Below are positions 45,357 to 56,311 of a DNA stretch of 64,000 bases, one piece after another (position 1 is the first letter of the stretch; the number at the start of each line of letters is the position of its first letter). The stretch spans positions 17,525 through 81,524 of the forward strand of contig JAHDDW010000007.1 in assembly GCA_020629155.1 (NCBI GenBank), given 5' to 3'. The notes below the pieces were generated by a model. The model searched no databases. It had not been told where the DNA came from and saw only the letters and a list, made by a program, of their open reading frames with translations. The stretch comes from Acidimicrobiales bacterium. GTDB taxonomy: Bacteria > Actinomycetota > Acidimicrobiia > Acidimicrobiales > SZUA-35. The translations under genes and the position numbers were made by a program.

Positions 45357-45974
45357 TTATGGCTGTACAATACTTTCAATTATAGGTTTAGAAATCTTCT
45401 TTAAGTGAGAAAACCACGCAGTGTCATCGATTTTAGTATTGCGCTGATTAAACGACACTGAGCCTGCTATAGCGTCAGCTAGCCATCCAATCGGATCTGA
45501 TTTCCGATACCAATCATATGTAGCTTGCAAATGAATACCTTCTTGTCGACATTGCGTGATGGCTCTACTATCGGTTCTGTTCTGTCCATTATTTCTAAGC
45601 GAAGCCTCACGAGTTTCAAGTAATATATTTTGTATGTCATAGGATTGAGTTATCTGGAGAAGACGTACCAAACACTGAAAGCGCGCTTCTTCCTGATCTT
45701 TAGGTTTGCAAGTATTTATAACGGCTATTGGCGTTAACGCATGATGCGCTGCGAGATCAAGCATCTCAAGCCGACGTGTTCGACCTCTATCAGTCCAATG
45801 AAAAGGTTTTTTGCTAGGGTTTGCTTCCTGCGCCAGTTTTTTGATTTCTCCGAAGGTCGTTATTGAATGGTTAAACAAAAGCCCTCCGCCTACCACATAT
45901 TTCTGGGGTGAACCTTCTAACTCGACGACAGACTCGTCTAAAATTAGGGTATAGCTATTTGGTAGGTTATTCAT
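45357..45974 (-). CDS. DUF3800-like protein
   Basis: N-terminal YTLILDES, mid FHWTD and C-terminal WLADAIAG fit the DUF3800 pattern (DES...H...aD..a). AT-rich islet. Confidence 0.55.
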   Translation of the reverse strand: MNNLPNSYTLILDESVVELEGSPQKYVVGGGLLFNHSITTFGEIKKLAQEANPSKKPFHWTDRGRTRRLEMLDLAAHHALTPIAVINTCKPKDQEEARFQCLVRLLQITQSYDIQNILLETREASLRNNGQNRTDSRAITQCRQEGIHLQATYDWYRKSDPIGWLADAIAGSVSFNQRNTKIDDTAWFSHLKKISKPIIESIVQP

Positions 45975-46284: not shown

Positions 46285-48624
46285 GTGACTGTTGATTTGT
46301 CTGCTTCAAAAAGAATAGCGGTTACTGGAGCGACAGGGTTTTTAGGTACCGCGCTTGTCGAACGGCTGCTGCGGTGCGTGCCGAACTGTGAAATAGTGCT
46401 GCTGGTTCGTCCAGGGAAAAAATCGTCACCTGAGAAACGTGCAAAACGTGAAATCTTCCGCAATGATGCGTTCGACACCCATCTTAAAGCTGTCGGCAAA
46501 GACCAATTTTGGGAAGAAATAGAACGACGAGTCACCGTTATCGCTGGAGATGTTGGCACCGATGGCCTCGGCCTCGACGAAAGCGGCCGCTCGGCACTCA
46601 AAACATGCGACACCGTTATTCACTCGGCAGCTACTGTCAGCTTCGACGCTGCGCTCGATACCGCTGTCGAAGTGAACCTGCTTGGCCCGACCCGCATCGC
46701 AAAAACGCTCCAAGATCTAGAATCTGACGCACACCTTGTTGCTGTGTCAACCTGCTATGTCGCTGGCAACAGACGCGGCAAAGCCGACGAAGAGCTTCTT
46801 AGTGACACGCCGTTTCATATCGATGTTGACTGGCGTCAAGAAGTTAAAGCCGCCCGACGAGTGCGTTCCGATTCAGATGCCGAATCTCGCACCTCAGCCA
46901 AGCTTAGCGATTTCCGTAAAGAAGCCGAAGCCGAATTAGGAGCAGCAGGCACACCCCTACTCGCGGCTAAAACCGAACAGATACGCCAGCGCTGGGCACA
47001 CGACCAACTTGTCGAAGCAGGCCGCGCTCGCGCGAAATCGCTTGGCTGGCCAGATGCATACGCCTACACCAAAGCGCTCGGCGAACGAGCGCTGCACGAA
47101 AGCAAAGGCTCGGTGCCCGTTTCCATCGTGCGGCCATCGATTATCGAATCGGCCTGGGCCGAACCGAAACCTGGCTGGATCAAAGGTTTTCGCATGGCCG
47201 AGCCAATCATCATCAGCTATGCTCGTGGCCTTTTGAAAGCATTCCCTGGTGTGCCTGAAGGCATCGTCGATGTTATCCCTGTCGATCTTGTCGTCGCTGC
47301 TATCATCAACGTGACGCTGCGAGGCCACGACAAAAGCGACAAGATCGACATCACCCAAGTTGCATCAGGCAGCCGCAACCCGCTGCATTATCGACGTCTT
47401 GTCACCTTAGCTAAAGAATGGTTCACGCAGAACCCTGTCTATGACAGCCTGGGCCAACCCATAGCGGTGCCAGAGTTTACGTTTCCTGGAAGAAATGCTG
47501 TCGAGAAAAAGCTTGACTGGCTGCAACGTGGCCTTACCCAAGCAGACAAGTCATTAAAACTGTTTCCACTGCGAGGCAAAAAAGCGCTCCTTAACGCCGA
47601 GCTTGAAGACCGAAAAAATCAAGTTGATCGAGCCGCAGGCTACGTGAAAATTTACGGTTCGTATGCTGAATGCGAAGCGCTCTATGGCGTTGATAACCTG
47701 CTAGGCCTTCACAATAGTTTAAGCAAAGCAAACCAGAAAGCGATGGGCTGTGACCCGCAAATAGTTGACTGGGACCATTACGTCACCAAGGTGCACTTGC
47801 CGTCGATTATTAAACACGCGAGAGTGAAGACCACCCCCACGAAGACTGATACCACGAGCAGAGAAGCGCGCCTGCGAAAACGCGTGCTTGCTCCAGAAAG
47901 ACAAATCGCTGCGTTCGACTTTGAGAACACAATCGTCGCTGGCAATGTTGTATCTAACTATGCCTGGTTGGCGACGCAGAACATGAACACCTTTGAACGA
48001 GGACGATTCACAGCCAAACTGATGGCAGAAGTGCCTTCGTTCATGTCGCTCGACAAGCAAGATCGCACCGATTTTTTACGTCATTTCTATCGCCGCTATG
48101 AAGGTTTCTCAGTTGAAGAAATGGCTCGGTTGGCACCAAAAATCCTCACCGACCATATCTTGCCAAATGCCTATCCTGCCGCGTTGCGACGAATCAGAGA
48201 ACACAAACGACTTGGCCATCACACGGTGCTAGTCACTGGGGCGTTAGATATCGTGATCGAACCGTTGAAACCTCTGTTTGACTATGTGATCTGTTCACAA
48301 ATGACGCAGCACAACGGCCGCTATAGCGGCGAGCTGCTCGACATTCCCCCAACTGGCGAAGTACGCGCGCAGCGTCTGCGAGAATACGCAAAGTCGCAAG
48401 ATATCGACCTTGGCGAATCCGTCGCCTACGGCGATTCACCGTCAGATTTACCGCTGCTCGACGCCGTCGGGTTTCCTGTTGCGGTTAACCCAGAGACTCG
48501 TTTGGCATCCACAGCTATGAAACGTGGCTGGCTGATAGAATATTGGACCAAAGCACAAGGCGGCAATACACAACCCGTGCTGCCTTTAAGCCCCTTACCT
48601 ACAAAAACTCGGAGCAGCTCATGA
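46285..48624 (+). CDS. Fused fatty acyl-CoA reductase-like (NAD-binding 4 / SDR) - HAD-IB phosphatase-like protein
   Basis: N-terminal VTGATGFLGTALVERLL and YAYTKALGE (YxxxK). C-terminal AAFDFENTIV (DxD-type HAD motif I), VLVTGALD and YGDSPSDLPLL. Confidence 0.8.
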   Translation: MTVDLSASKRIAVTGATGFLGTALVERLLRCVPNCEIVLLVRPGKKSSPEKRAKREIFRNDAFDTHLKAVGKDQFWEEIERRVTVIAGDVGTDGLGLDESGRSALKTCDTVIHSAATVSFDAALDTAVEVNLLGPTRIAKTLQDLESDAHLVAVSTCYVAGNRRGKADEELLSDTPFHIDVDWRQEVKAARRVRSDSDAESRTSAKLSDFRKEAEAELGAAGTPLLAAKTEQIRQRWAHDQLVEAGRARAKSLGWPDAYAYTKALGERALHESKGSVPVSIVRPSIIESAWAEPKPGWIKGFRMAEPIIISYARGLLKAFPGVPEGIVDVIPVDLVVAAIINVTLRGHDKSDKIDITQVASGSRNPLHYRRLVTLAKEWFTQNPVYDSLGQPIAVPEFTFPGRNAVEKKLDWLQRGLTQADKSLKLFPLRGKKALLNAELEDRKNQVDRAAGYVKIYGSYAECEALYGVDNLLGLHNSLSKANQKAMGCDPQIVDWDHYVTKVHLPSIIKHARVKTTPTKTDTTSREARLRKRVLAPERQIAAFDFENTIVAGNVVSNYAWLATQNMNTFERGRFTAKLMAEVPSFMSLDKQDRTDFLRHFYRRYEGFSVEEMARLAPKILTDHILPNAYPAALRRIREHKRLGHHTVLVTGALDIVIEPLKPLFDYVICSQMTQHNGRYSGELLDIPPTGEVRAQRLREYAKSQDIDLGESVAYGDSPSDLPLLDAVGFPVAVNPETRLASTAMKRGWLIEYWTKAQGGNTQPVLPLSPLPTKTRSSS

Positions 48625-50222
48625 CAACCACACCGAGATCGAACCCAAGACCTGGTTTTGTGTTAGAAGTCGATCAGAAAACACCCCCTGTTGTTTTTCC
48701 ACATGGATCTAGCTTCACACTAGAGACCTTGCCACAAAAGACAAGTCGAGTGCTCTACCCGAGCGAACCGTTTGCTGCCGCTGCTGAAACGACCGCCATG
48801 ATCGCAGACGCTTTTGCTGCGCCGCAAGGGTCTGCACCGCTGAGCGACCTGCTTAAAGCAAACACGAAACTGACCATCGTTTTCAGCGATATTTCTTACC
48901 CCTATCCTGCGATGCGCAAACCTGATATACGACAACAGGTTATCGAACATGTTCTTGAACTAGCCGCTAGTGCTGGCTGCGATGATGTGCATCTCATAGC
49001 GGCAACTGGTTTACAGCGTAAAATGACAGACAAAGAGTTTCGCCATGTGCTTGGCGACAGAATCTGCGGGTCGTTTGATAGTGACCAGCTTTATAGCCAT
49101 AACGCTTATGACCGTGATGCGCTAACGACGCTCAGCGCCAAAGGCGGCGAATCGTTCTCGCTGAATACACGAGTCGCCGAATCTGATCTTGTTGTTGCTG
49201 TCAACGTTTGTTCTCATCCAACACATAGCGGCTGGCACCTTTTCACGAACGGTCTTTCTGACTATCAAGCCAGCTATGAGCAGAACAATCCGACGCTCGC
49301 AAAAAAAGCATCATCGGTTGCTGACACCAAAAAGTCTGCTGCTTATAAAGTAGCGCAAAAACAAGGCCAGCTACTCGATAAATACGGCCCCACTATTTTT
49401 CATATTGAAGCGGTTGTTAATAATAATGTGTATGGTGACGGCCCGTTGCGTGTGCTCCAGAAACGTGAATGGGAGTGGAACCTGCGTGACAAAGCCGCCT
49501 TTGGCGCACTTCGCAAAGGCCTCACCCAACTTGCAGGGCTAGCGTCTCGTAAAGCTGGCAACGCCTGGCGTGCACCGTATGAAACTATTGCGCTGCATTG
49601 TGGCGATGTAGCAGCTGTCCATAACGCTTCGGTCGAAAAACTGCTTGAACAAAACGTTGTTCCTGTTGAAGGACAAAGCGACATCTTGACAATGGGGCTC
49701 AGCGATTTCGGCCCACACAGTGTCGATTCGACCCAAAACCCTCTTCTGGCGCTCGCTGAAGGTTTAGGCACTGTTTTTAACAACTACATCGGCAAACCTC
49801 TGGTTCGTAAAGGCGGCGTCATCATAATGAGCCACCCGATGAAGGCGTCGTTTGACCCTGTGCATCATTCGCCTCATATCGACTTTTTTGAAGAAGTAAT
49901 CAAAGAAACAACTGATGCGCCCACGATTGAAGAAACCTATGCAGATCGGTTCGTGAACGATGACTGGTATAAACATCTTCACCAGACAGGGTTCTCGTTC
50001 CATGGCGGCCATCCGCTGCAACTGTGGTATCAGCTAGGCGCCGCTTTAACGCACGTAGCACAAGTTATTGTCGTGGGTGGTGACACCGAAACAGTTCGCA
50101 CACTAGGGCTGAAACCAGCTTCAACGCTACAAGATGCGCTTGAAATGGCAGAAGCAGTAGTGGGTAAAGACGCAACGTTAAGCCATGTCGCCTCTCCGCA
50201 TCTGATCGCTCACGTTAGCTGA
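48621..50222 (+). CDS. LarA-like (lactate racemase N-terminal domain / DUF2088) protein
   Basis: 533 aa from ATG 48621 (GGAG upstream; ATGA overlap with the preceding gene). The family assignment comes from overall resemblance only. Confidence 0.5.
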   Translation: MTTTPRSNPRPGFVLEVDQKTPPVVFPHGSSFTLETLPQKTSRVLYPSEPFAAAAETTAMIADAFAAPQGSAPLSDLLKANTKLTIVFSDISYPYPAMRKPDIRQQVIEHVLELAASAGCDDVHLIAATGLQRKMTDKEFRHVLGDRICGSFDSDQLYSHNAYDRDALTTLSAKGGESFSLNTRVAESDLVVAVNVCSHPTHSGWHLFTNGLSDYQASYEQNNPTLAKKASSVADTKKSAAYKVAQKQGQLLDKYGPTIFHIEAVVNNNVYGDGPLRVLQKREWEWNLRDKAAFGALRKGLTQLAGLASRKAGNAWRAPYETIALHCGDVAAVHNASVEKLLEQNVVPVEGQSDILTMGLSDFGPHSVDSTQNPLLALAEGLGTVFNNYIGKPLVRKGGVIIMSHPMKASFDPVHHSPHIDFFEEVIKETTDAPTIEETYADRFVNDDWYKHLHQTGFSFHGGHPLQLWYQLGAALTHVAQVIVVGGDTETVRTLGLKPASTLQDALEMAEAVVGKDATLSHVASPHLIAHVS

Positions 50223-50855
50223 AAGATACACATTCCTTAGTGTTGAAGCAGCCTCAGCGGCGTTTGAGCTGTGGAGCTTTTAACGTTTCTCTTTCCAAGC
50301 GTCTCAACAGCTGCTAGCCCAGCCTTTTCTTCAAGAATAAAACTTGTCTGATCACTGTTTTCTCAACATGCGCCAGCACAAAGTTGTGCCATGTGTCAGG
50401 TGACCAATAAAAGGTTCTTCATTAGTGATCAATATATGCACCTTCGGGTTATCTGAATCGGAAGGAAAAACAGATGTAGTTTCTGAATAATCTGACAATA
50501 CATGTTTGAACCAACTAGCAACTAGGCCCAGCACTCCTAAAAAAGGTCGTGAGTGGCAAAGTAGCGTTTGGAGTGTCTTATTATTCTGTAGGTTTACAAG
50601 ACACCCGAAACCGAGAAGTGTTGCGACTCAAAACCCGCTTAAAAAAGCGTTTTGTTGTGTCTCAACAAGTCGTCTCATAGAATATTGTCTCGTGATGATT
50701 TGCTTTAGGGGTTTGAGAGATGTCCCTATTGGAACTTCGGGATGGCTGACTGTAGGCACTATTCTATTGGGTTGCATTTGGCGATTCCCAAACGGCACAC
50801 CCCAAAACCCTACTTTGCGGCATGGCAGCTACCCGAGTACTGGGCCTAGTCGGAA

Positions 50856-51635
50856 TCAACTTTGAAAGTTTTGGCCGTGTTGGCTGGCTTGACTCGTTGG
50901 AGTTGTCGTTACTGATTTAGGAAGTATTAGCCGTCTCGGATGGTCTGGTAAAGGTGGGTTCGTTGTTGGCGGCTTCTCGGGCGGCGCTGTTTGTGTGACG
51001 GGTGGCGGTGGGAGCGTTTGCTGTACCGTGGGAGATGACTCTTGTTTTTCTGGTTCTTGATTGTTGTTTTCCGATAGATAGAAAAGAGGTGATTTATCGC
51101 CGCCGATTTGGGTTGCGAGCATTTGGTAGTACCTAATCAGGCCATGTTTAGGATCTGCTTTCAGGGCGTAACAGCGATCAGGGTTCGCTAGCTTATTTAT
51201 AGCTTTTTTTGCGAAATTCACTCCTGAGAAAAGTTTAGAACCTTGGTAGGTAACAAAGTTTCCTATTGAATGAGTTGGCTGTATCCCATGTTTGCGGAAA
51301 GAGAACGATTTGAAGTAAGTGGCTGTTCTGCTGATTAATGATGGGACAAGAGCCACTTGGCTTACCGCTAAAATAATAGCTATAGGTAGCAGCGCTATGT
51401 TTATTGCTGGGAATAAAGCAGCGTAGAGAGCTGTATGCGCGGCGATTGTTGTGCCTGCATGAACTTTTTTTACGACGAAACCCGCTTTGCCGTTAGTGAC
51501 AAGTTCACCGCTTTCTAACAGTTGGGCAGCAGAAAGAAATTTTTGGAAGAATGTGGGGGCTTTAGTCAATCTAGCTATTTCTAGATTGTGATGGTATCTG
51601 GACCTGAAATCAGTCCATTCTATAATTTCCGCCAT
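50856..51635 (-). CDS. Hypothetical membrane protein with Pro/Thr-rich C-terminal tail
   Basis: 259 aa with a hydrophobic stretch AALFPAINIALLPIAIILAVSQVALVPSLI and a tail PPPPVTQTAPPEKPPTTNPPLPDHP. AT-rich. Confidence 0.55.
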   Translation of the reverse strand: MAEIIEWTDFRSRYHHNLEIARLTKAPTFFQKFLSAAQLLESGELVTNGKAGFVVKKVHAGTTIAAHTALYAALFPAINIALLPIAIILAVSQVALVPSLISRTATYFKSFSFRKHGIQPTHSIGNFVTYQGSKLFSGVNFAKKAINKLANPDRCYALKADPKHGLIRYYQMLATQIGGDKSPLFYLSENNNQEPEKQESSPTVQQTLPPPPVTQTAPPEKPPTTNPPLPDHPRRLILPKSVTTTPTSQASQHGQNFQS

Positions 51636-51665
51636 ACCTGCCAGTTTAACGCAAAAATTATGTCA

Positions 51666-52400
51666 TTAACGTTGCCGCACTAGAAGGTGGCGAGCCATTT
51701 CTTTAGCTCGTGTCTCCCAGCTTTCGTATTGTCCAAGTCTTTCTAAGATGTCTTTTAAAATTATTTTGTTCGGAGTATCTTTTTTAGTCTCGTTTTTCAG
51801 TTCTTCTTCAATTTCCCACACGTTCTCGTCGCTGGCTAGTCGGGTTAGCCAATAATTCCAAGTTCCATTTGATTTAAGGTTAGTTAGATCAATAATTGGT
51901 TCGGGTGCAACTGGTTGCACATGGAAGCCATATGACATACTACCTGGTCCTACTGCTACGATGTCAGAAGCAACGTTTCCACGCATGTTTACCTTACTGT
52001 TCTCAGGCACAGAGAAGCCATGTGCGACGCCGCCTTCTCTGCCTATCACACCTTCTGCCGTGTTTCCTTCGATGTTTCCAATTTGGACTATCACACCGTT
52101 TCCTTCGATCAGCAGTCGTTCTGCTTTCTCGGGATCACCTATTACTAATTTGTTTAATAAGTTGGATAGTTTTTCTAAGTCAAATTGTTCAAGTGAATCT
52201 TTTTTGTCCAGTAAATTTTTGATTTCTTGTTCATCTTCTGTCCCCCGAAACTTTTTGAAAATTGAACCGCAAAATTTTTGTATAGCCTTTTGGCCAGCTT
52301 CGGTTAAGGTTCTGGTAGCAACAATTTTGGTTACGTACAAGCCGTAACTCAAGCTACTTGGAGCAAATTCAGCCAGTGTTTTTATTATTTCTATTTTCAT
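51666..52400 (-). CDS. Hypothetical protein (helical ends, Gly/Asn/Val-rich beta-repeat-like centre)
   Basis: 244 aa from ATG 52400 (GGAAGG upstream). The central segment is IEGNGVIVQIGNIEGNTAEGVIGREGGVAHGFSVPENSKVNMRGNV. 30 nt upstream of 50856-51635. Confidence 0.55.
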   Translation of the reverse strand: MKIEIIKTLAEFAPSSLSYGLYVTKIVATRTLTEAGQKAIQKFCGSIFKKFRGTEDEQEIKNLLDKKDSLEQFDLEKLSNLLNKLVIGDPEKAERLLIEGNGVIVQIGNIEGNTAEGVIGREGGVAHGFSVPENSKVNMRGNVASDIVAVGPGSMSYGFHVQPVAPEPIIDLTNLKSNGTWNYWLTRLASDENVWEIEEELKNETKKDTPNKIILKDILERLGQYESWETRAKEMARHLLVRQR

Positions 52401-52797
52401 ACAACAACCTTCCATGTTTAAGTGTTTGCAAATCCAATGATATGGAAGCATTAAGAGAACACAAACGAATCTAAATTTCTTTTAAAGATGTCTAACGTTG
52501 TCTATGGTTGTGGTATAAGTTCAAGCAACTACGTTTACCTTGTCACTGACTGAAACACAAAACTCGACCATTTGGTCTTCTCGCAATGGAACGTTTCCGA
52601 AAACCCGTCGTACGATTCGGTTTGAGAGGTGTCGTTTGTAGCATCGTCTGGCACACAGGCCCATTATCGACAACTACCAATTTTTTCCTGCTTGAAGGCT
52701 GTGTCTGTTCTTAGGCAAACAAAAGATAGCCTGAAGGAACTGTCGATCTACTGCATCTCTCCGGGAATGCTACAGAAAGCCTTCGGATACCTCTTCA

Positions 52798-53601
52798 ATG
52801 TTTAACAAAGAAACCAAACAAACTACAGGCATTTATTACAAGACAGATTGGGCGCATAAGCGATGGTCTCGCAAAGTTCGTTCAGCGTGGGTTTGGCTAT
52901 TCATGAAGCCTTCAATCGGCATCTACGGTCGACCAAAAACTATCGGCGCTGACCGCCTCAAAAATGTTAGCGGTCCCGTCGTCTTTGTGGCTAACCATCA
53001 CAGCCACGCTGATACAACACTGCTGCTGGCTACCATTCCTGCGCATCTGCGATCGAATCTTGCTATCGCTGCTGGTGAAGACTATTTTTTTCCTAACAAA
53101 ACTGCAGGGTTTCTATCAGCGTTGTTTATCGGCGCTATCCCTATCGACCGTAATCGCATATCAAAGCTTTCTATACAGAATGCGCAGCAAGCGCTTGAAG
53201 CTGGGCGAAACCTGCTGATCTTTCCTGAAGGAAGCCGAAGCCCTGCAGGGTGGAACGGCGAACATAAGCCAGGCGCCGCTTTTATCGCGAAACGTGTCGG
53301 CGTGCCACTTGTACCTATCTACATCTACGGAACAGGTACCGTACTCCCGAAAGGTAAATGGTGGCCACGCAAATCGCCATGCGCTGTTGTATTCGGCGCG
53401 CCAATAGAAACCTCTGGCAAAGACAAACCTAAAGTGCTTGCAGCACGGTCACAAGCAGCTGTCGCTCAGCTCGCTGATGAGTTCCGCAATGGTTGGTGGT
53501 CTTCCATACGCAACGCCAACAAAAATGAAACCCAGGCACCAGCACCTGAAGCGAGCGCCTGGCGTCAACGTTGGGCTTCACATCCCGAAGACTCCAAATA
53601 A
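52798..53601 (+). CDS. 1-acyl-sn-glycerol-3-phosphate acyltransferase family (PlsC-like)
   Basis: Motif I ANHHSHADT (HX4D) and motif III FPEGSRS. Confidence 0.85.
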   Translation: MFNKETKQTTGIYYKTDWAHKRWSRKVRSAWVWLFMKPSIGIYGRPKTIGADRLKNVSGPVVFVANHHSHADTTLLLATIPAHLRSNLAIAAGEDYFFPNKTAGFLSALFIGAIPIDRNRISKLSIQNAQQALEAGRNLLIFPEGSRSPAGWNGEHKPGAAFIAKRVGVPLVPIYIYGTGTVLPKGKWWPRKSPCAVVFGAPIETSGKDKPKVLAARSQAAVAQLADEFRNGWWSSIRNANKNETQAPAPEASAWRQRWASHPEDSK

Positions 53602-54889: not shown

Positions 54890-54895
54890 ATCTTG

Positions 54896-56311
54896 ATGGG
54901 ATACGATTTTGTCGGAAGAGAAAAAGAGCTGCAGCAATTAGAAAGCATGCTACAGCGTAGCAAACCCTCCATAACTGTTATTTATGGAAGAAGACGCATT
55001 GGCAAAACCGAACTTATGAAGAAAGCTGTTTCCCAACAGCAGCACCTTTGGTTTGAGGGAACTGAAGGTCTTTCAACAAAACAGCAGATGGACCGATTCA
55101 TGCTCCAAATGACCGACCAAACAGGCATCACGCCTGAGGCTCCAGCAAAAAACTGGGCTGAACTTTTTCATACTCTAACCCCTCATTTCAAAGTAAACCC
55201 TTGCGTGCTGATCCTGGACGAATTTCAATGGCTGGCAAACTACCAGAACAGCGTAGTCTCTGACTTAAAAATGATTTGGGATCGATACTGGAGCCAAATT
55301 TCAGGAATGAAGCTAATTCTATGCGGCTCGATAGCTTCGTTTATGAAAGATAATGTCATAAAATCTTCCGCTCTTTACGGAAGAACGGAAACAATTATTC
55401 ATCTTCAAGCATTAAAATTGCGTGAGGTAGCTCTGTTACTTAACAAAGGCCCAGCAGAAACAATCGAGGCATACAACCTTTTCGGAGGCATCCCACTCTA
55501 TATCGCAATGTTGAGAGACCACGGTTCTTCTGTTGTCCTTGCGACGGAGGAACTAGCATTTACTCCTAACGGCTATTTTACAAATGAATATAAGCGAATA
55601 TTCACTAGCCACTTCGGGAAAAATCCAGTCTATGAAAAACTTATTCGCCTGCTCGCCGCTCATCCGTATGGGCTAACAAGAAACAAGATCACTGCTACTA
55701 AAAATATCGGAGAAGGAGGAAGACTAACTTCCTATCTCCGCAATCTTGAAGATGCAGGCTTTATCGCCTCAACAACACCTATCGATAAAAAATCGACATC
55801 CAAATTGATTAACTATGAGATCATTGATCCTTATATTCGGTTTTATTTTGCGTTTATAGAACCAAATCGTAAGAAGATCGAGGCCCAGGGCGGCCCTCTA
55901 TTTCCAGCAATATCACGCTCCGCGAAATATCGTTCGTGGCTTGGCAGATCGTTTGAATATACCTGTCGGGCACACACGTATGAGCTAAGTGACAAACTAG
56001 GTTTTCGCGCAGTGTCTTACTCTGCTGGACCTTTCTTCCGTAGCGCTTCAGAGGCAACACATGGCGTCCAGCTTGACCTTCTCTTCGACAGAGCAGACAA
56101 TGTTTTACTGGTTTGTGAAATGAAATATAGCCAAAATAAAATCGGCGTAACCATCCTCAAAGAGCTAGAACGCAAAGAATCAATCTTGACAGAGTTCTTC
56201 CCCAGCAAAACAATCCTTTCAACGCTGATCACTGCTAACGGGGTGACGAAAGAGGTACAGGAACATTTAGGGCCGAATCGCATCGTCTCGATTAAAGACC
56301 TCCTGGCTTGA
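54896..56311 (+). CDS. AAA-type ATPase with C-terminal PD-(D/E)XK (DUF234-like) domain, copy 2
   Basis: Walker A YGRRRIGKTELM, Walker B LILDEFQW and GVQLDLLF...LVCEMKY. Long identical runs with copy 1. Confidence 0.75.
   Translation: MGYDFVGREKELQQLESMLQRSKPSITVIYGRRRIGKTELMKKAVSQQQHLWFEGTEGLSTKQQMDRFMLQMTDQTGITPEAPAKNWAELFHTLTPHFKVNPCVLILDEFQWLANYQNSVVSDLKMIWDRYWSQISGMKLILCGSIASFMKDNVIKSSALYGRTETIIHLQALKLREVALLLNKGPAETIEAYNLFGGIPLYIAMLRDHGSSVVLATEELAFTPNGYFTNEYKRIFTSHFGKNPVYEKLIRLLAAHPYGLTRNKITATKNIGEGGRLTSYLRNLEDAGFIASTTPIDKKSTSKLINYEIIDPYIRFYFAFIEPNRKKIEAQGGPLFPAISRSAKYRSWLGRSFEYTCRAHTYELSDKLGFRAVSYSAGPFFRSASEATHGVQLDLLFDRADNVLLVCEMKYSQNKIGVTILKELERKESILTEFFPSKTILSTLITANGVTKEVQEHLGPNRIVSIKDLLA

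What the first reader, a model, noticed from the sequence alone, without database searches (positions are those of the whole stretch)
50856..52400. Two co-directional unknown genes forming the inserted block: candidate novel two-component module
**Gene 1 (51666-52400, 244 aa).** It has helical N- and C-terminal regions around a Gly/Asn/Val-rich segment that looks like short beta-solenoid repeats (IEGNGVIVQIGNIEGNTAEGVIGREGGVAHGF...NMRGNVASDIVAVGPG).

**Gene 2 (50856-51635, 259 aa).** It lies 30 nt downstream and has a central hydrophobic membrane segment and a proline-rich tail (PPPPVTQTAPPEKPPTTNPPLPDHP).

Neither protein matches a family I can name. They are AT-richer than the flanks, are transcribed against the surrounding operon, and are followed by the inverted-repeat-bounded noncoding segment. 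A soluble sensor or scaffold-like protein plus a membrane protein on an inserted block is the kind of layout seen in abortive-infection, defence or toxin-immunity modules. Nothing in the sequence proves that here.
Basis: inference. Interest (0 to 1): 0.6.

Follow-up and report, generated by a model that had tools for sequence, protein, structure and literature searches.

The report
Orphan gene pair inserted in lipid operon
Two real-looking genes with no relatives in any database sit on a 2.6-kb piece of DNA that only this Acidimicrobiales genome carries, inside an otherwise deeply conserved lipid-gene cluster; nothing shows they are a defence or toxin system.

Summary
Two co-directional minus-strand ORFs (g1 52400-51666, 244 aa; g2 51635-50856, 259 aa) exist as described. 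Both are far longer than any ORF in 1000 shuffles, and both read as coding in their own frame.

The "inserted block" is strongly confirmed. The LarA-like and PlsC genes are adjacent in 77 of 77 related Acidimicrobiia loci (gap 48-362 nt) and in 9 of 9 same-family loci checked. Here the gap is 2,575 nt. It is GC-poor and has no DNA match in the other 87 genomes of the family.

Both proteins are orphans. No significant match turned up in Pfam, NCBIfam, PADLOC, PHROGs, PDB, phage or plasmid records, IMG/VR or JGI metagenomes, about 1,000 related genomes or a 5.8-billion-cluster protein database. A full phmmer scan of g1 against 1.84 billion representatives also found nothing. Single-sequence AlphaFold models were unusable.

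Two links exist, both inside the same genome. The first 60 residues of g2 resemble a fragment beside a ParE-like toxin. About 200 nt of the noncoding tail resembles the region just upstream of a serine resolvase.

Best reading: a lineage-specific islet, probably a mobile-element remnant, carrying an orphan two-gene unit. The defence or toxin-immunity idea is neither supported nor excluded, and co-occurrence cannot be tested. Interest is low to moderate.

The parts
50223..52797 (.). Lineage-specific insertion (2,575 nt) between the stop of the LarA-like gene and the start of the PlsC-type acyltransferase gene
   Evidence: The LarA-like to PlsC gap is 48-362 nt (median 131) in 77 of 77 Acidimicrobiia loci and about 70-110 nt in 9 same-family loci. 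No DNA match in the other 87 genomes of the family. GC 0.431, the 4.6th percentile of genome windows; trinucleotide distance at the 88th percentile.
51666..52400 (-). g1: orphan 244-aa acidic soluble protein. N-terminal part predicted helical at low confidence, Gly/Asn/Val-rich centre with short internal repeats, helical C-terminal part
   Evidence: ORF. Native-like codon score of 0.235 in its own frame only. GGAAGG lies 7 nt upstream of the ATG. No homologue in 5.8 billion clusters or 1.84 billion representatives. No family match. AlphaFold pLDDT 42.6 overall, 65-79 only for helices at 179-243.
50856..51635 (-). g2: orphan 259-aa membrane protein. About 60-aa N-terminal domain, 35-43-aa hydrophobic segment (one long helix or a helical hairpin), basic juxtamembrane region, Pro/Thr/Gln-rich tail
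   Evidence: ORF. Hydropathy and charge. Codon score positive over 50950-51550 and negative in the last ~100 nt. No homologue outside this genome. Residues 5-60 match G000:C58:46489-46656 at 39-41% identity, E 2e-7 to 3e-8.
51636..51665 (-). 30-nt spacer between g1 and g2, beginning with a second in-frame stop (TAA TGA). No terminator on this strand
   Evidence: Sequence. The terminator scan found none on the minus strand between the genes.
52401..52797 (.). AT-rich region (GC about 0.36-0.42) between the divergent g1 and PlsC genes. It must hold the promoter of the pair and a new promoter for PlsC. A TAGACA-N15-TAGATT sequence lies upstream of g1 (inference only)
   Evidence: Composition. Sequence. 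No coding signal in any frame. The consensus scan found no promoter here that meets its rules.
50521..50850 (.). 330-nt noncoding segment closed by a 16-nt inverted repeat, starting 6 nt after the g2 stop. Strongly structured, and contains a small hairpin resembling a bidirectional terminator (50636-50649)
   Evidence: Inverted repeats I5, I8 and I9. RNA fold z-score -6.3 on the gene strand and -3.4 on the other. Terminator-like hairpin. No Rfam family.
50526..50725 (+). About 200-nt repeat shared with G000:C18:164404-164600, which ends a few bases before the start codon of a serine resolvase gene. Carries several GTGTCT/AGACAC motifs. Possibly a res-like or regulatory site (inference)
   Evidence: nhmmer E 7.8e-22; 78% identity over the 143-nt blastn core. 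The resolvase is PF00239, E 2e-43. The window holds no resolvase remnant.
48621..50222 (+). Left flank: LarA-like gene, intact. Its ATG overlaps the stop of the acyl-CoA reductase/HAD fusion gene by 4 nt (ATGA)
   Evidence: Pfam Lar_N. Sequence. Present in 57 of the 61 family genomes searched, this one included.
52798..53601 (+). Right flank: PlsC-type acyltransferase gene, intact, now cut off from its ancestral upstream partners
   Evidence: Pfam Acyltransferase. Orthologues lie directly after the LarA-like or reductase gene in relatives.

Best explanation
**What it is.** A 2.6-kb islet found only in this Acidimicrobiales lineage has been inserted into the short spacer between the LarA-like and PlsC genes. 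These belong to a gene trio conserved across the class: acyl-CoA reductase/HAD fusion, LarA-like, PlsC. The islet carries one two-gene transcription unit, read against the operon, that encodes two orphan proteins.
- g1 is an acidic cytosolic protein.
- g2 is a membrane-anchored protein. Its N-terminal domain, and probably its C-terminal part with the proline-rich tail, face the cytoplasm.

**Where it came from.** The islet ends in a structured 330-nt segment closed by an inverted repeat. That segment contains a copy of the sequence that elsewhere in the genome sits directly upstream of a serine resolvase. The most likely history is delivery as cargo of a small mobile element, or recombination at a resolvase-associated site, with the recombinase since lost.

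**What is shown and what is inferred.**
- Shown: the insertion, the intact and coding-like ORFs, their orphan status, and the two intragenomic links.
- Inferred: co-transcription, membrane topology and mobile-element origin.
- Guessed: that the proteins act together at the membrane as an accessory, conflict-type or element-maintenance function rather than in the host's lipid pathway.
For: **Insertion**
- 77 of 77 class-level loci and 9 of 9 family loci have the LarA-like and PlsC genes adjacent and co-directional.
- no DNA match in the other 87 genomes of the family.
- low GC.

**Real coding ORFs**
- both are longer than any ORF in 1000 shuffles.
- the codon score is frame-specific.
- the protein database already holds exactly these 244-aa and 259-aa products as singletons on the 151,295-nt contig.
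- the N-terminal domain of g2 is conserved at protein level (E about 1e-7) with a second locus, without detectable DNA similarity. That argues the domain is, or was, translated and under selection.

**One unit**
- same strand, 30-nt gap, no terminator in between.

**Mobile-element link**
- a 200-nt repeat (nhmmer E 7.8e-22) matches the region immediately upstream of a resolvase. That resolvase sits in an islet with VapC, PIN_12 and DUF4143-ATPase genes.
- the islet ends in a structured segment (z-score -6.3).
Against: - The insert contains no recombinase, transposase or integrase gene or remnant.
- There is no convincing target-site duplication. The best flanking direct repeat is 15 nt with 14 matches, about what chance gives in 3 kb by my own estimate (about 0.2 expected).
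- The resolvase-proximal repeat has only two copies, so it is not a repeat family.
- The codon usage of g1 is native-like. This fits long residence, or a donor with similar usage, as well as it fits recent transfer.
- The genome is probably a metagenome-assembled genome (59 contigs; its relatives in the collection are MAGs), and the joins could not be verified with reads.
- No function is demonstrated for either protein.
Confidence: 0.6

Rival explanations
1. **The first reader's idea.** The pair is a self-contained conflict module: abortive infection, defence or toxin-immunity. The cytosolic g1 would sense or restrain, and the membrane protein g2 would act as the effector, for example by disturbing the membrane.
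For: - The layout is a soluble protein plus a membrane protein on an inserted, GC-poor, oppositely transcribed block.
- The only relative of the g2 N-terminal domain lies directly downstream of a ParE-like toxin gene.
- The tail repeat is shared with a resolvase/PIN islet.
- A strong PADLOC PDC-S27 candidate ATPase lies 2.5 kb away (E 4e-102).
Against: - No PADLOC, Pfam, NCBIfam or PHROG match was found for either protein, whole or in pieces. The best PADLOC hits are at E 0.006, about 14 bits.
- No homologues exist, so there is no co-occurrence or defence-island statistic.
- Both proteins (244 and 259 aa) are larger than typical type II toxin-antitoxin partners.
- Two enzyme genes (PlsC-type acyltransferase, beta-lactamase-family protein) separate the pair from the PDC-S27 gene.
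- The C58 fragment has no start codon between the toxin's stop and the matching stretch, and it may be a dead remnant.
Confidence: 0.12
2. **Non-functional DNA.** The ORFs are remnants of foreign or decayed DNA that happen to remain open, or genes already on the way to loss, with no current role.
For: - Both are singletons in 5.8 billion protein clusters.
- The g2 codon score of 0.092 is below the genome's 5th percentile (0.111), and its tail scores as non-coding.
- g2 has a weak ribosome-binding context.
- Single-sequence AlphaFold gives no confident fold.
- The islet has lost any recombinase it once had.
Against: - Two open frames of about 270 codons are each beyond anything in 1000 shuffles.
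- The codon score of g1 is at the genome mean, and only in its own frame.
- The double stop and clean start arrangement look like maintained genes.
- The g2 N-terminal domain is conserved at protein level with a paralogue.
Confidence: 0.15
3. **Structural or envelope role.** g1 would form a short beta-helical, bactofilin-like scaffold that g2 anchors to the membrane.
For: - The Gly/Asn/Val-rich centre of g1 has Ile at six-residue spacing in its first three hexads (IEGNGV, IVQIGN, IEGNTA) (my reading of the sequence).
- g2 has a membrane anchor and a proline-rich tail.
Against: - No Bactofilin or Hexapep match, even at a permissive E-value on the isolated segment.
- AlphaFold pLDDT is 22-26 and no strands are predicted there.
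- About 66 residues is short for a stable solenoid.
- An essential structural role is unlikely for a gene pair found in no relative.
Confidence: 0.04
4. **Assembly artefact.** The block was misjoined into the contig during metagenome assembly.
For: - The genome has 59 contigs, and its relatives in the collection are metagenome-assembled genomes.
- The block's composition differs from that of its flanks.
- Reads could not be examined.
Against: - It would need two precise misjoins exactly in a ~100-nt spacer between two syntenic genes inside a 151-kb contig.
- The codon usage of g1 matches this genome.
- Pieces of the block have diverged paralogues on two other contigs of the same genome.
Confidence: 0.04

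Closest known systems
Strain-specific genomic islets or 'morons' carrying ORFan cargo
   Same: A short, GC-poor block, transcribed on its own, is inserted between conserved genes. It is absent from every relative examined. It carries repeat sequence shared with a recombinase-bearing islet elsewhere in the genome.
   Different: It has no recombinase, no tRNA target, no clear target duplication and no phage genes. The cargo has no family at all.
RexA/RexB of phage lambda and similar abortive-infection pairs of a soluble sensor plus a membrane effector (comparison from general knowledge)
   Same: Two adjacent co-directional genes encode one cytosolic protein of about 250 aa and one membrane protein, on DNA that is not part of the host core.
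   Different: There is no sequence similarity to any phage record or to any Abi or defence model. g2 has one hydrophobic hairpin or long helix and a long soluble part, not a compact multi-pass channel. No prophage context, and no phenotype known.
Type II toxin-antitoxin modules (ParDE/RelBE, VapBC, HEPN-MNT)
   Same: A tight two-gene arrangement. The paralogue of the g2 N-terminal domain sits next to a ParE-like toxin gene.
   Different: Neither protein has a recognisable toxin fold or a DNA-binding antitoxin domain. Both are two to three times larger than usual partners, and one is membrane-bound.
Bactofilin and hexapeptide-repeat beta-helix proteins
   Same: A Gly/Val/Ile/Asn-rich segment with some six-residue periodicity lies between helical ends in g1.
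   Different: No profile match, no predicted strands, and only about 66 residues.
Miniature inverted-repeat elements and res sites of serine resolvases (for the noncoding tail)
   Same: A 330-nt segment is closed by 16-nt inverted repeats. Inside it, a 200-nt stretch with several GTGTCT/AGACAC motifs is homologous to the sequence directly upstream of a resolvase gene.
   Different: Only two diverged copies exist in the genome. The inverted-repeat arms are not shared with the second copy. There is no target duplication. Binding or recombination is untested.

Membership tests
Known or candidate anti-phage defence systems (PADLOC-DB 2.0) | Significant match of at least one component to a system model | tested here: not met
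   The best g1 hits are PDC-S52 at E 0.006 (14.3 bits) and Csx1 at E 0.0067. g2 has none.
Known or candidate anti-phage defence systems (PADLOC-DB 2.0) | Location in a defence island or prophage | tested here: inconclusive
   A PDC-S27 candidate ATPase lies at 54893-56311 (E 4e-102), separated from the pair by two enzyme genes. No phage genes were found.
Type II toxin-antitoxin module | Recognisable toxin domain (ParE/RelE, PIN, MazF, HEPN, Doc and others) | tested here: not met
   no such Pfam or NCBIfam match, whole or in pieces.
Type II toxin-antitoxin module | Antitoxin with a DNA-binding domain (RHH, HTH, AbrB) | tested here: not met
   none in g1 or in the g2 N-terminal domain.
Type II toxin-antitoxin module | Two small adjacent co-transcribed genes | tested here: inconclusive
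   They are adjacent with a 30-nt gap and no terminator. At 244 and 259 aa they are larger than usual, and expression was not testable.
RexAB-like abortive infection pair | Homology to RexA/RexB or another Abi family | tested here: not met
RexAB-like abortive infection pair | Protection against phage through membrane depolarisation | not testable with these tools
   Needs expression and phage challenge.
Bactofilin / hexapeptide beta-helix | Profile match (PF04519 or PF00132) and a predicted beta-helix | tested here: not met
   Searches gave no match. One search gave pLDDT 22-26 with no strands at residues 100-175.
Horizontally acquired genomic islet | Absent from the orthologous site in relatives | tested here: met
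   77 of 77; 9 of 9; two same-genus genomes; no DNA match in the other 87 family genomes.
Horizontally acquired genomic islet | Atypical composition | tested here: met
   GC at the 4.6th percentile and trinucleotide distance at the 88th. The deviation is moderate, not extreme.
Horizontally acquired genomic islet | Recombinase gene, tRNA target or target-site duplication | tested here: not met
   no resolvase remnant; no tRNA; only a chance-level 15-nt direct repeat.
Horizontally acquired genomic islet | Sequence shared with other mobile loci of the genome | tested here: met
   a 200-nt repeat also lies directly upstream of a serine resolvase on contig C18.
Membrane anti-sigma factor | Anti-sigma domain (zf-HC2 or RskA) and an adjacent sigma factor gene | tested here: not met
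   no such domain. g1 has no sigma-70 regions. The nearest ECF sigma gene is 5.6 kb away.

The most novel reading that the evidence does not exclude
The pair is a functional two-protein conflict module of a kind not yet described. A cytosolic partner (g1) would control a membrane-inserted effector (g2). The N-terminal domain of g2 would define a new small domain family that also occurs next to a ParE-like toxin. The module would have been carried into a conserved lipid operon by a resolvase-associated element.
Probability: 0.08. Interest if true: 0.6.

Novelty: new member of a known kind. Interest (0 to 1): 0.25.

Why it matters
This is a clean, well-bounded example of how a small foreign block can split a class-wide conserved operon without destroying it. 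The operon is acyl-CoA reductase/HAD, LarA-like, PlsC, and PlsC must now be expressed from a new promoter.

The two proteins add to the pool of true orphans, with no relative among about 15 billion predicted proteins. If they proved to be an active membrane-directed module, they would define new families. With a single occurrence there is nothing to compare them with, so the case rests entirely on experiment.

For the scan, the useful result is negative. The defence-module label should not be attached on present evidence.

Tried and rejected
**Family and structure searches**
- Profile searches of whole proteins in Pfam, PADLOC, NCBIfam and PHROGs, and of five separate segments in Pfam at E up to 10, gave only sub-threshold hits. 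These were DUF6988 at 18.5 bits against a 27-bit cut-off, PFam54_60 and Rnk_N.
- I suspected a HEPN-like C-terminal domain in g1 because of an R-x6-H in its last helix and a weak Csx1 hit. I dropped it: no HEPN-clan match appeared, and the domain is only about 65 residues.
- PDB sequence search found nothing.
- Single-sequence AlphaFold2 gave pLDDT 42.6 for g1 and 44.1 for g2. Foldseek against the PDB with the g1 model gave nothing below E = 5. I did not run fold searches on the g2 model because it is too poor to mean anything.

**Homologue searches**
- The 5.8-billion-cluster word-index search for g1, g2 and the N-terminal domain alignment returned only the query or nothing.
- A full phmmer scan of g1 against 1.84 billion representatives returned only itself.
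- Six-frame searches of 60 relatives, 300 genomes of the order and 400 of the class found only the window's own copies and the C58 fragment at convincing E-values; three other hits (E 0.005-0.009) were weak.
- GTDB genome contigs, IMG/VR and JGI metagenomes gave nothing. Phage and plasmid records gave nothing significant; the only hit was E 0.3.
- A weak hit of the g1 centre in genome G030 (E 0.005) lies in an antisense, GC-rich frame of another gene and is spurious.

**Insertion ends and other checks**
- A 15-nt direct repeat (50710-50724 and 52619-52633) looked like possible recombination cores flanking the genes. It does not extend and is at chance level.
- No resolvase remnant in the window, no Rfam family, no tRNA.
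- A genome-wide fuzzy motif script timed out. It was replaced by a pattern search, which found only a handful of copies of the ACACxCxAAAxxCTRCTTTGC motif.
Full report
**1. What is in the sequence.**

- g1 runs from ATG 52400 to the stop at 51666, 244 aa. The frame is open up to 52481, with further in-frame ATGs at 52451 and 52415. The 52400 ATG is preceded at 7 nt by GGAAGG. The public protein collection holds exactly this 244-aa product.
- g2 runs 51635-50856, 259 aa, and is likewise present as a database singleton.
- The two genes share one reading frame. They are separated by TAA TGA plus 27 nt, so they are two genes and not one gene split by a recent nonsense mutation.
- No terminator-like hairpin lies between them on their strand.

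**2. Are they more than chance?**
Yes.

- In 1000 dinucleotide-preserving shuffles of the 2,575-nt block, the longest stop-free frame averaged 113 codons (max 207) and the second longest 96 (max 150). The observed values are 271 and 268.
- I built a codon log-odds score from 910 long ORFs of the same genome. g1 scores 0.235 in its own frame, against a genome mean of 0.252 (sd 0.079), and is negative in the other five frames.
- g2 scores 0.092, below the genome's 5th percentile of 0.111. Its first 100 codons score 0.18 and its proline-rich tail is negative.
- g1 therefore looks like an ordinary gene of this genome. g2 looks coding except for its low-complexity tail.

**3. What the proteins look like.**

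- g1 is acidic (36 D+E against 32 K+R) and has no hydrophobic segment.
- A single-sequence AlphaFold2 model of g1 was poor (mean pLDDT 42.6). Helices were predicted at 34-99 at low confidence (block pLDDT 42-58) and at 179-243 at moderate confidence (65-79). Nothing was predicted for residues 100-175.
- That central part is Gly/Asn/Val/Ile-rich. It contains short internal repeats that are also visible at the DNA level: IEGN twice, 12 residues apart, and a GF-x-V-(P/Q) unit twice, 30 residues apart (families D10 and D3).
It has no support from profiles or from the model.
- g2 has a hydrophobic stretch of 35-43 residues (about 63-105; maximum 19-residue hydropathy 2.47) that contains three prolines. 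Basic residues flank it on both sides. I infer that this fits a helical hairpin with both ends in the cytoplasm somewhat better than a single span.
- After the hydrophobic stretch, g2 has a basic region of about 90 residues and a Pro/Thr/Gln-rich tail. Its AlphaFold model is unusable (pLDDT 44.1).

**4. The block is a genuine insertion.**
The flanking genes are these:

- an acyl-CoA reductase/HAD fusion (46285-48624);
- a LarA-like gene (48621-50222), whose ATG overlaps the preceding stop as ATGA;
- a PlsC-type acyltransferase (52798-53601).

Evidence that the block between the last two is an insertion:

- In nine genomes of the same family, the three genes are contiguous and co-directional, with roughly 70-110 nt between the LarA-like and PlsC genes.
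- In 80 further Acidimicrobiia loci, 77 contain both genes. In all 77 they are adjacent and co-directional, with an estimated gap of 48-362 nt (median 131).
- Here the gap is 2,575 nt.
- The three other genomes of the genus lack the LarA-like gene. In the two whose locus was fetched, the reductase gene abuts PlsC directly. They too show no room for the block.
- The block has no DNA match in the other 87 genomes of the family.
- Its GC content is 0.431, the 4.6th percentile of equal-sized windows of this genome. Its trinucleotide distance is at the 88th percentile.
- An assembly chimera would need two exact misjoins inside a ~100-nt spacer. That is hard to square with g1's native codon usage and with diverged relatives of parts of the block on two other contigs.

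**5. Orphan status.**
No significant match was found for either protein in any of the following:

- Pfam, PADLOC, NCBIfam or PHROGs, or Pfam when the proteins were cut into five pieces and scanned at E up to 10;
- PDB sequences;
- phage or plasmid records;
- IMG/VR, JGI metagenomes or GTDB genome contigs;
- six-frame searches of 60 relatives, 300 genomes of the order and 400 of the class;
- the 5.8-billion-cluster protein collection;
- for g1, a full phmmer pass over 1.84 billion representatives, which returned only the query.

A weak hit of the g1 centre in one family genome falls in an antisense, GC-rich frame and is spurious.

**6. Two links inside the same genome.**

(a) The g2 N-terminal domain has a paralogue fragment.

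- Residues 5-60 of g2 match a frame on contig C58 at 39-41% identity (E 2e-7 by HMMER, 3e-8 by tblastn). No DNA-level similarity is detectable.
- That frame begins right after the stop of a small ParE-like toxin gene (PF05016, E 0.0033, below the curated cut-off).
- It has no start codon between the toxin's stop and the matching stretch. The only upstream ATG lies inside the toxin gene. It has no membrane segment and stops after about 75 residues. It may be a remnant.
- The match shows that the g2 N-terminal domain is a real, evolving protein domain.

(b) The noncoding tail shares a repeat with a resolvase locus.

- About 200 nt of the tail (50526-50725) match C18:164404-164600 (nhmmer E 7.8e-22; 78% identity over the 143-nt blastn core).
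- On C18 this sequence ends a few bases before the ATG of a serine resolvase (PF00239, E 2e-43). The resolvase sits among VapC-PIN, PIN_12 and DUF4143-ATPase genes.
- The shared stretch contains several GTGTCT/AGACAC motifs and a small hairpin whose stem is conserved while its loop differs.
- In the window no resolvase follows. Instead, the stretch lies inside a 330-nt segment closed by a 16-nt inverted repeat at 50521-50536 and 50835-50850. That segment folds far better than shuffles: z-score -6.3 on the gene strand and -3.4 on the other. It matches no Rfam family.

**7. Most likely explanation.**
I read the block as a small islet, brought in by or recombined at a resolvase-associated mobile sequence whose recombinase is gone. 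It carries a two-gene unit for a cytosolic protein and a membrane-anchored protein.

- The insertion, the ORFs, the orphan status and the two links are shown.
- Co-transcription, topology and mobile origin are inferred.
- That the proteins act together at the membrane in some accessory, conflict-type or element-maintenance role is a guess.

I put this reading at 0.6. The specific defence, abortive-infection or toxin-immunity reading gets about 0.12. It rests only on layout and on neighbourhood hints: a ParE-like toxin next to the paralogue, PIN genes next to the repeat, and a PADLOC PDC-S27 candidate ATPase 2.5 kb away. No profile evidence supports it. The other rivals are non-functional remnants (0.15), a bactofilin-like scaffold with an anchor (0.04) and an assembly artefact (0.04).

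**8. Comparison with what is known.**

- In layout, the pair recalls soluble-plus-membrane abortive-infection pairs such as RexAB (from general knowledge), and it recalls two-gene addiction modules.
- It fails every membership feature I could test for these, for bactofilin or hexapeptide proteins, and for anti-sigma factors (see the membership table).
- It does meet three of the four features tested for an acquired islet: absence from relatives, atypical composition, and sequence shared with another mobile locus. It lacks a recombinase and a target-site duplication.

**9. Verdict.**

- The "inserted block of two unknown genes" is confirmed and sharpened.
- The functional proposal remains untested speculation, because the genes occur only once in all data searched.

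This is a new instance of a familiar kind of feature, a lineage-specific islet with orphan cargo. Interest is 0.25. It would rise only if experiments showed an activity.

Noticed in passing
window 46285-53601 and loci L015-L023, L029-L108: The trio of acyl-CoA reductase/HAD fusion, LarA-like gene and PlsC acyltransferase is contiguous and co-directional in 9 of 9 family loci. LarA-like and PlsC are adjacent in 77 of 77 further Acidimicrobiia loci. A LarA-type (nickel-pincer racemase family) protein fixed inside a lipid-gene cluster across a whole class suggests an undescribed step in lipid metabolism. The other three genomes of this genus have lost the LarA-like gene; the reductase-to-PlsC junction, seen in two of them, is kept.
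   Followed up: partly
window 54893-56311 (+): This 472-aa ATPase (Pfam ATPase_2 plus DUF234) matches the PADLOC phage-defence candidate PDC-S27 over its full length (E 4e-102). No match was found within about 9 kb of the FAR-HAD/PlsC genes in two same-genus genomes.
   Followed up: partly
window 50521-50850: This 330-nt noncoding segment is closed by a 16-nt inverted repeat and has nested inner inverted repeats. The RNA fold z-score is -6.3 on the minus strand and -3.4 on the plus strand. No Rfam family matches. It contains a hairpin resembling a bidirectional terminator at 50636-50649, whose stem is conserved and loop changed in the C18 copy.
   Followed up: partly
G000:C18:162393-167416 (locus L024 2394-7417): An accessory islet with a DUF4143 AAA ATPase, a VapC-like PIN, a serine resolvase, a PIN_12 protein with tandem repeats near its C-terminus, and a pentapeptide-repeat protein. 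The 200 nt upstream of the resolvase are the only other copy of the window's tail repeat.
   Followed up: partly
G000:C58:46441-46958 (locus L025 6442-6959, minus strand): A ParE-like toxin ORF (87 aa) is followed immediately by a fragment similar to the g2 N-terminal domain, with no start codon between the toxin's stop and the matching stretch. A possible AbrB/SpoVT-like small ORF lies divergently upstream; that label comes from eye inspection only, with no Pfam match.
   Followed up: partly
window 50555-50576 (minus strand) and 50796-50825; G000 C18:164432, C33:11695, C36:~290: A motif of about 21 nt, ACACxCxAAAxxCTRCTTTGC, occurs in about five places in the genome. Two of them lie in inverted orientation inside the 330-nt segment. 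A pattern search found 3 exact-to-pattern copies plus chance-level near matches. Its meaning is unknown.
   Followed up: partly
window 45357-45974 (-): The first-stage note calls this 205-aa ORF DUF3800-like. Pfam gave no match at E <= 0.001 in my scan. Its codon score is low (0.091), as for g2.
   Followed up: no
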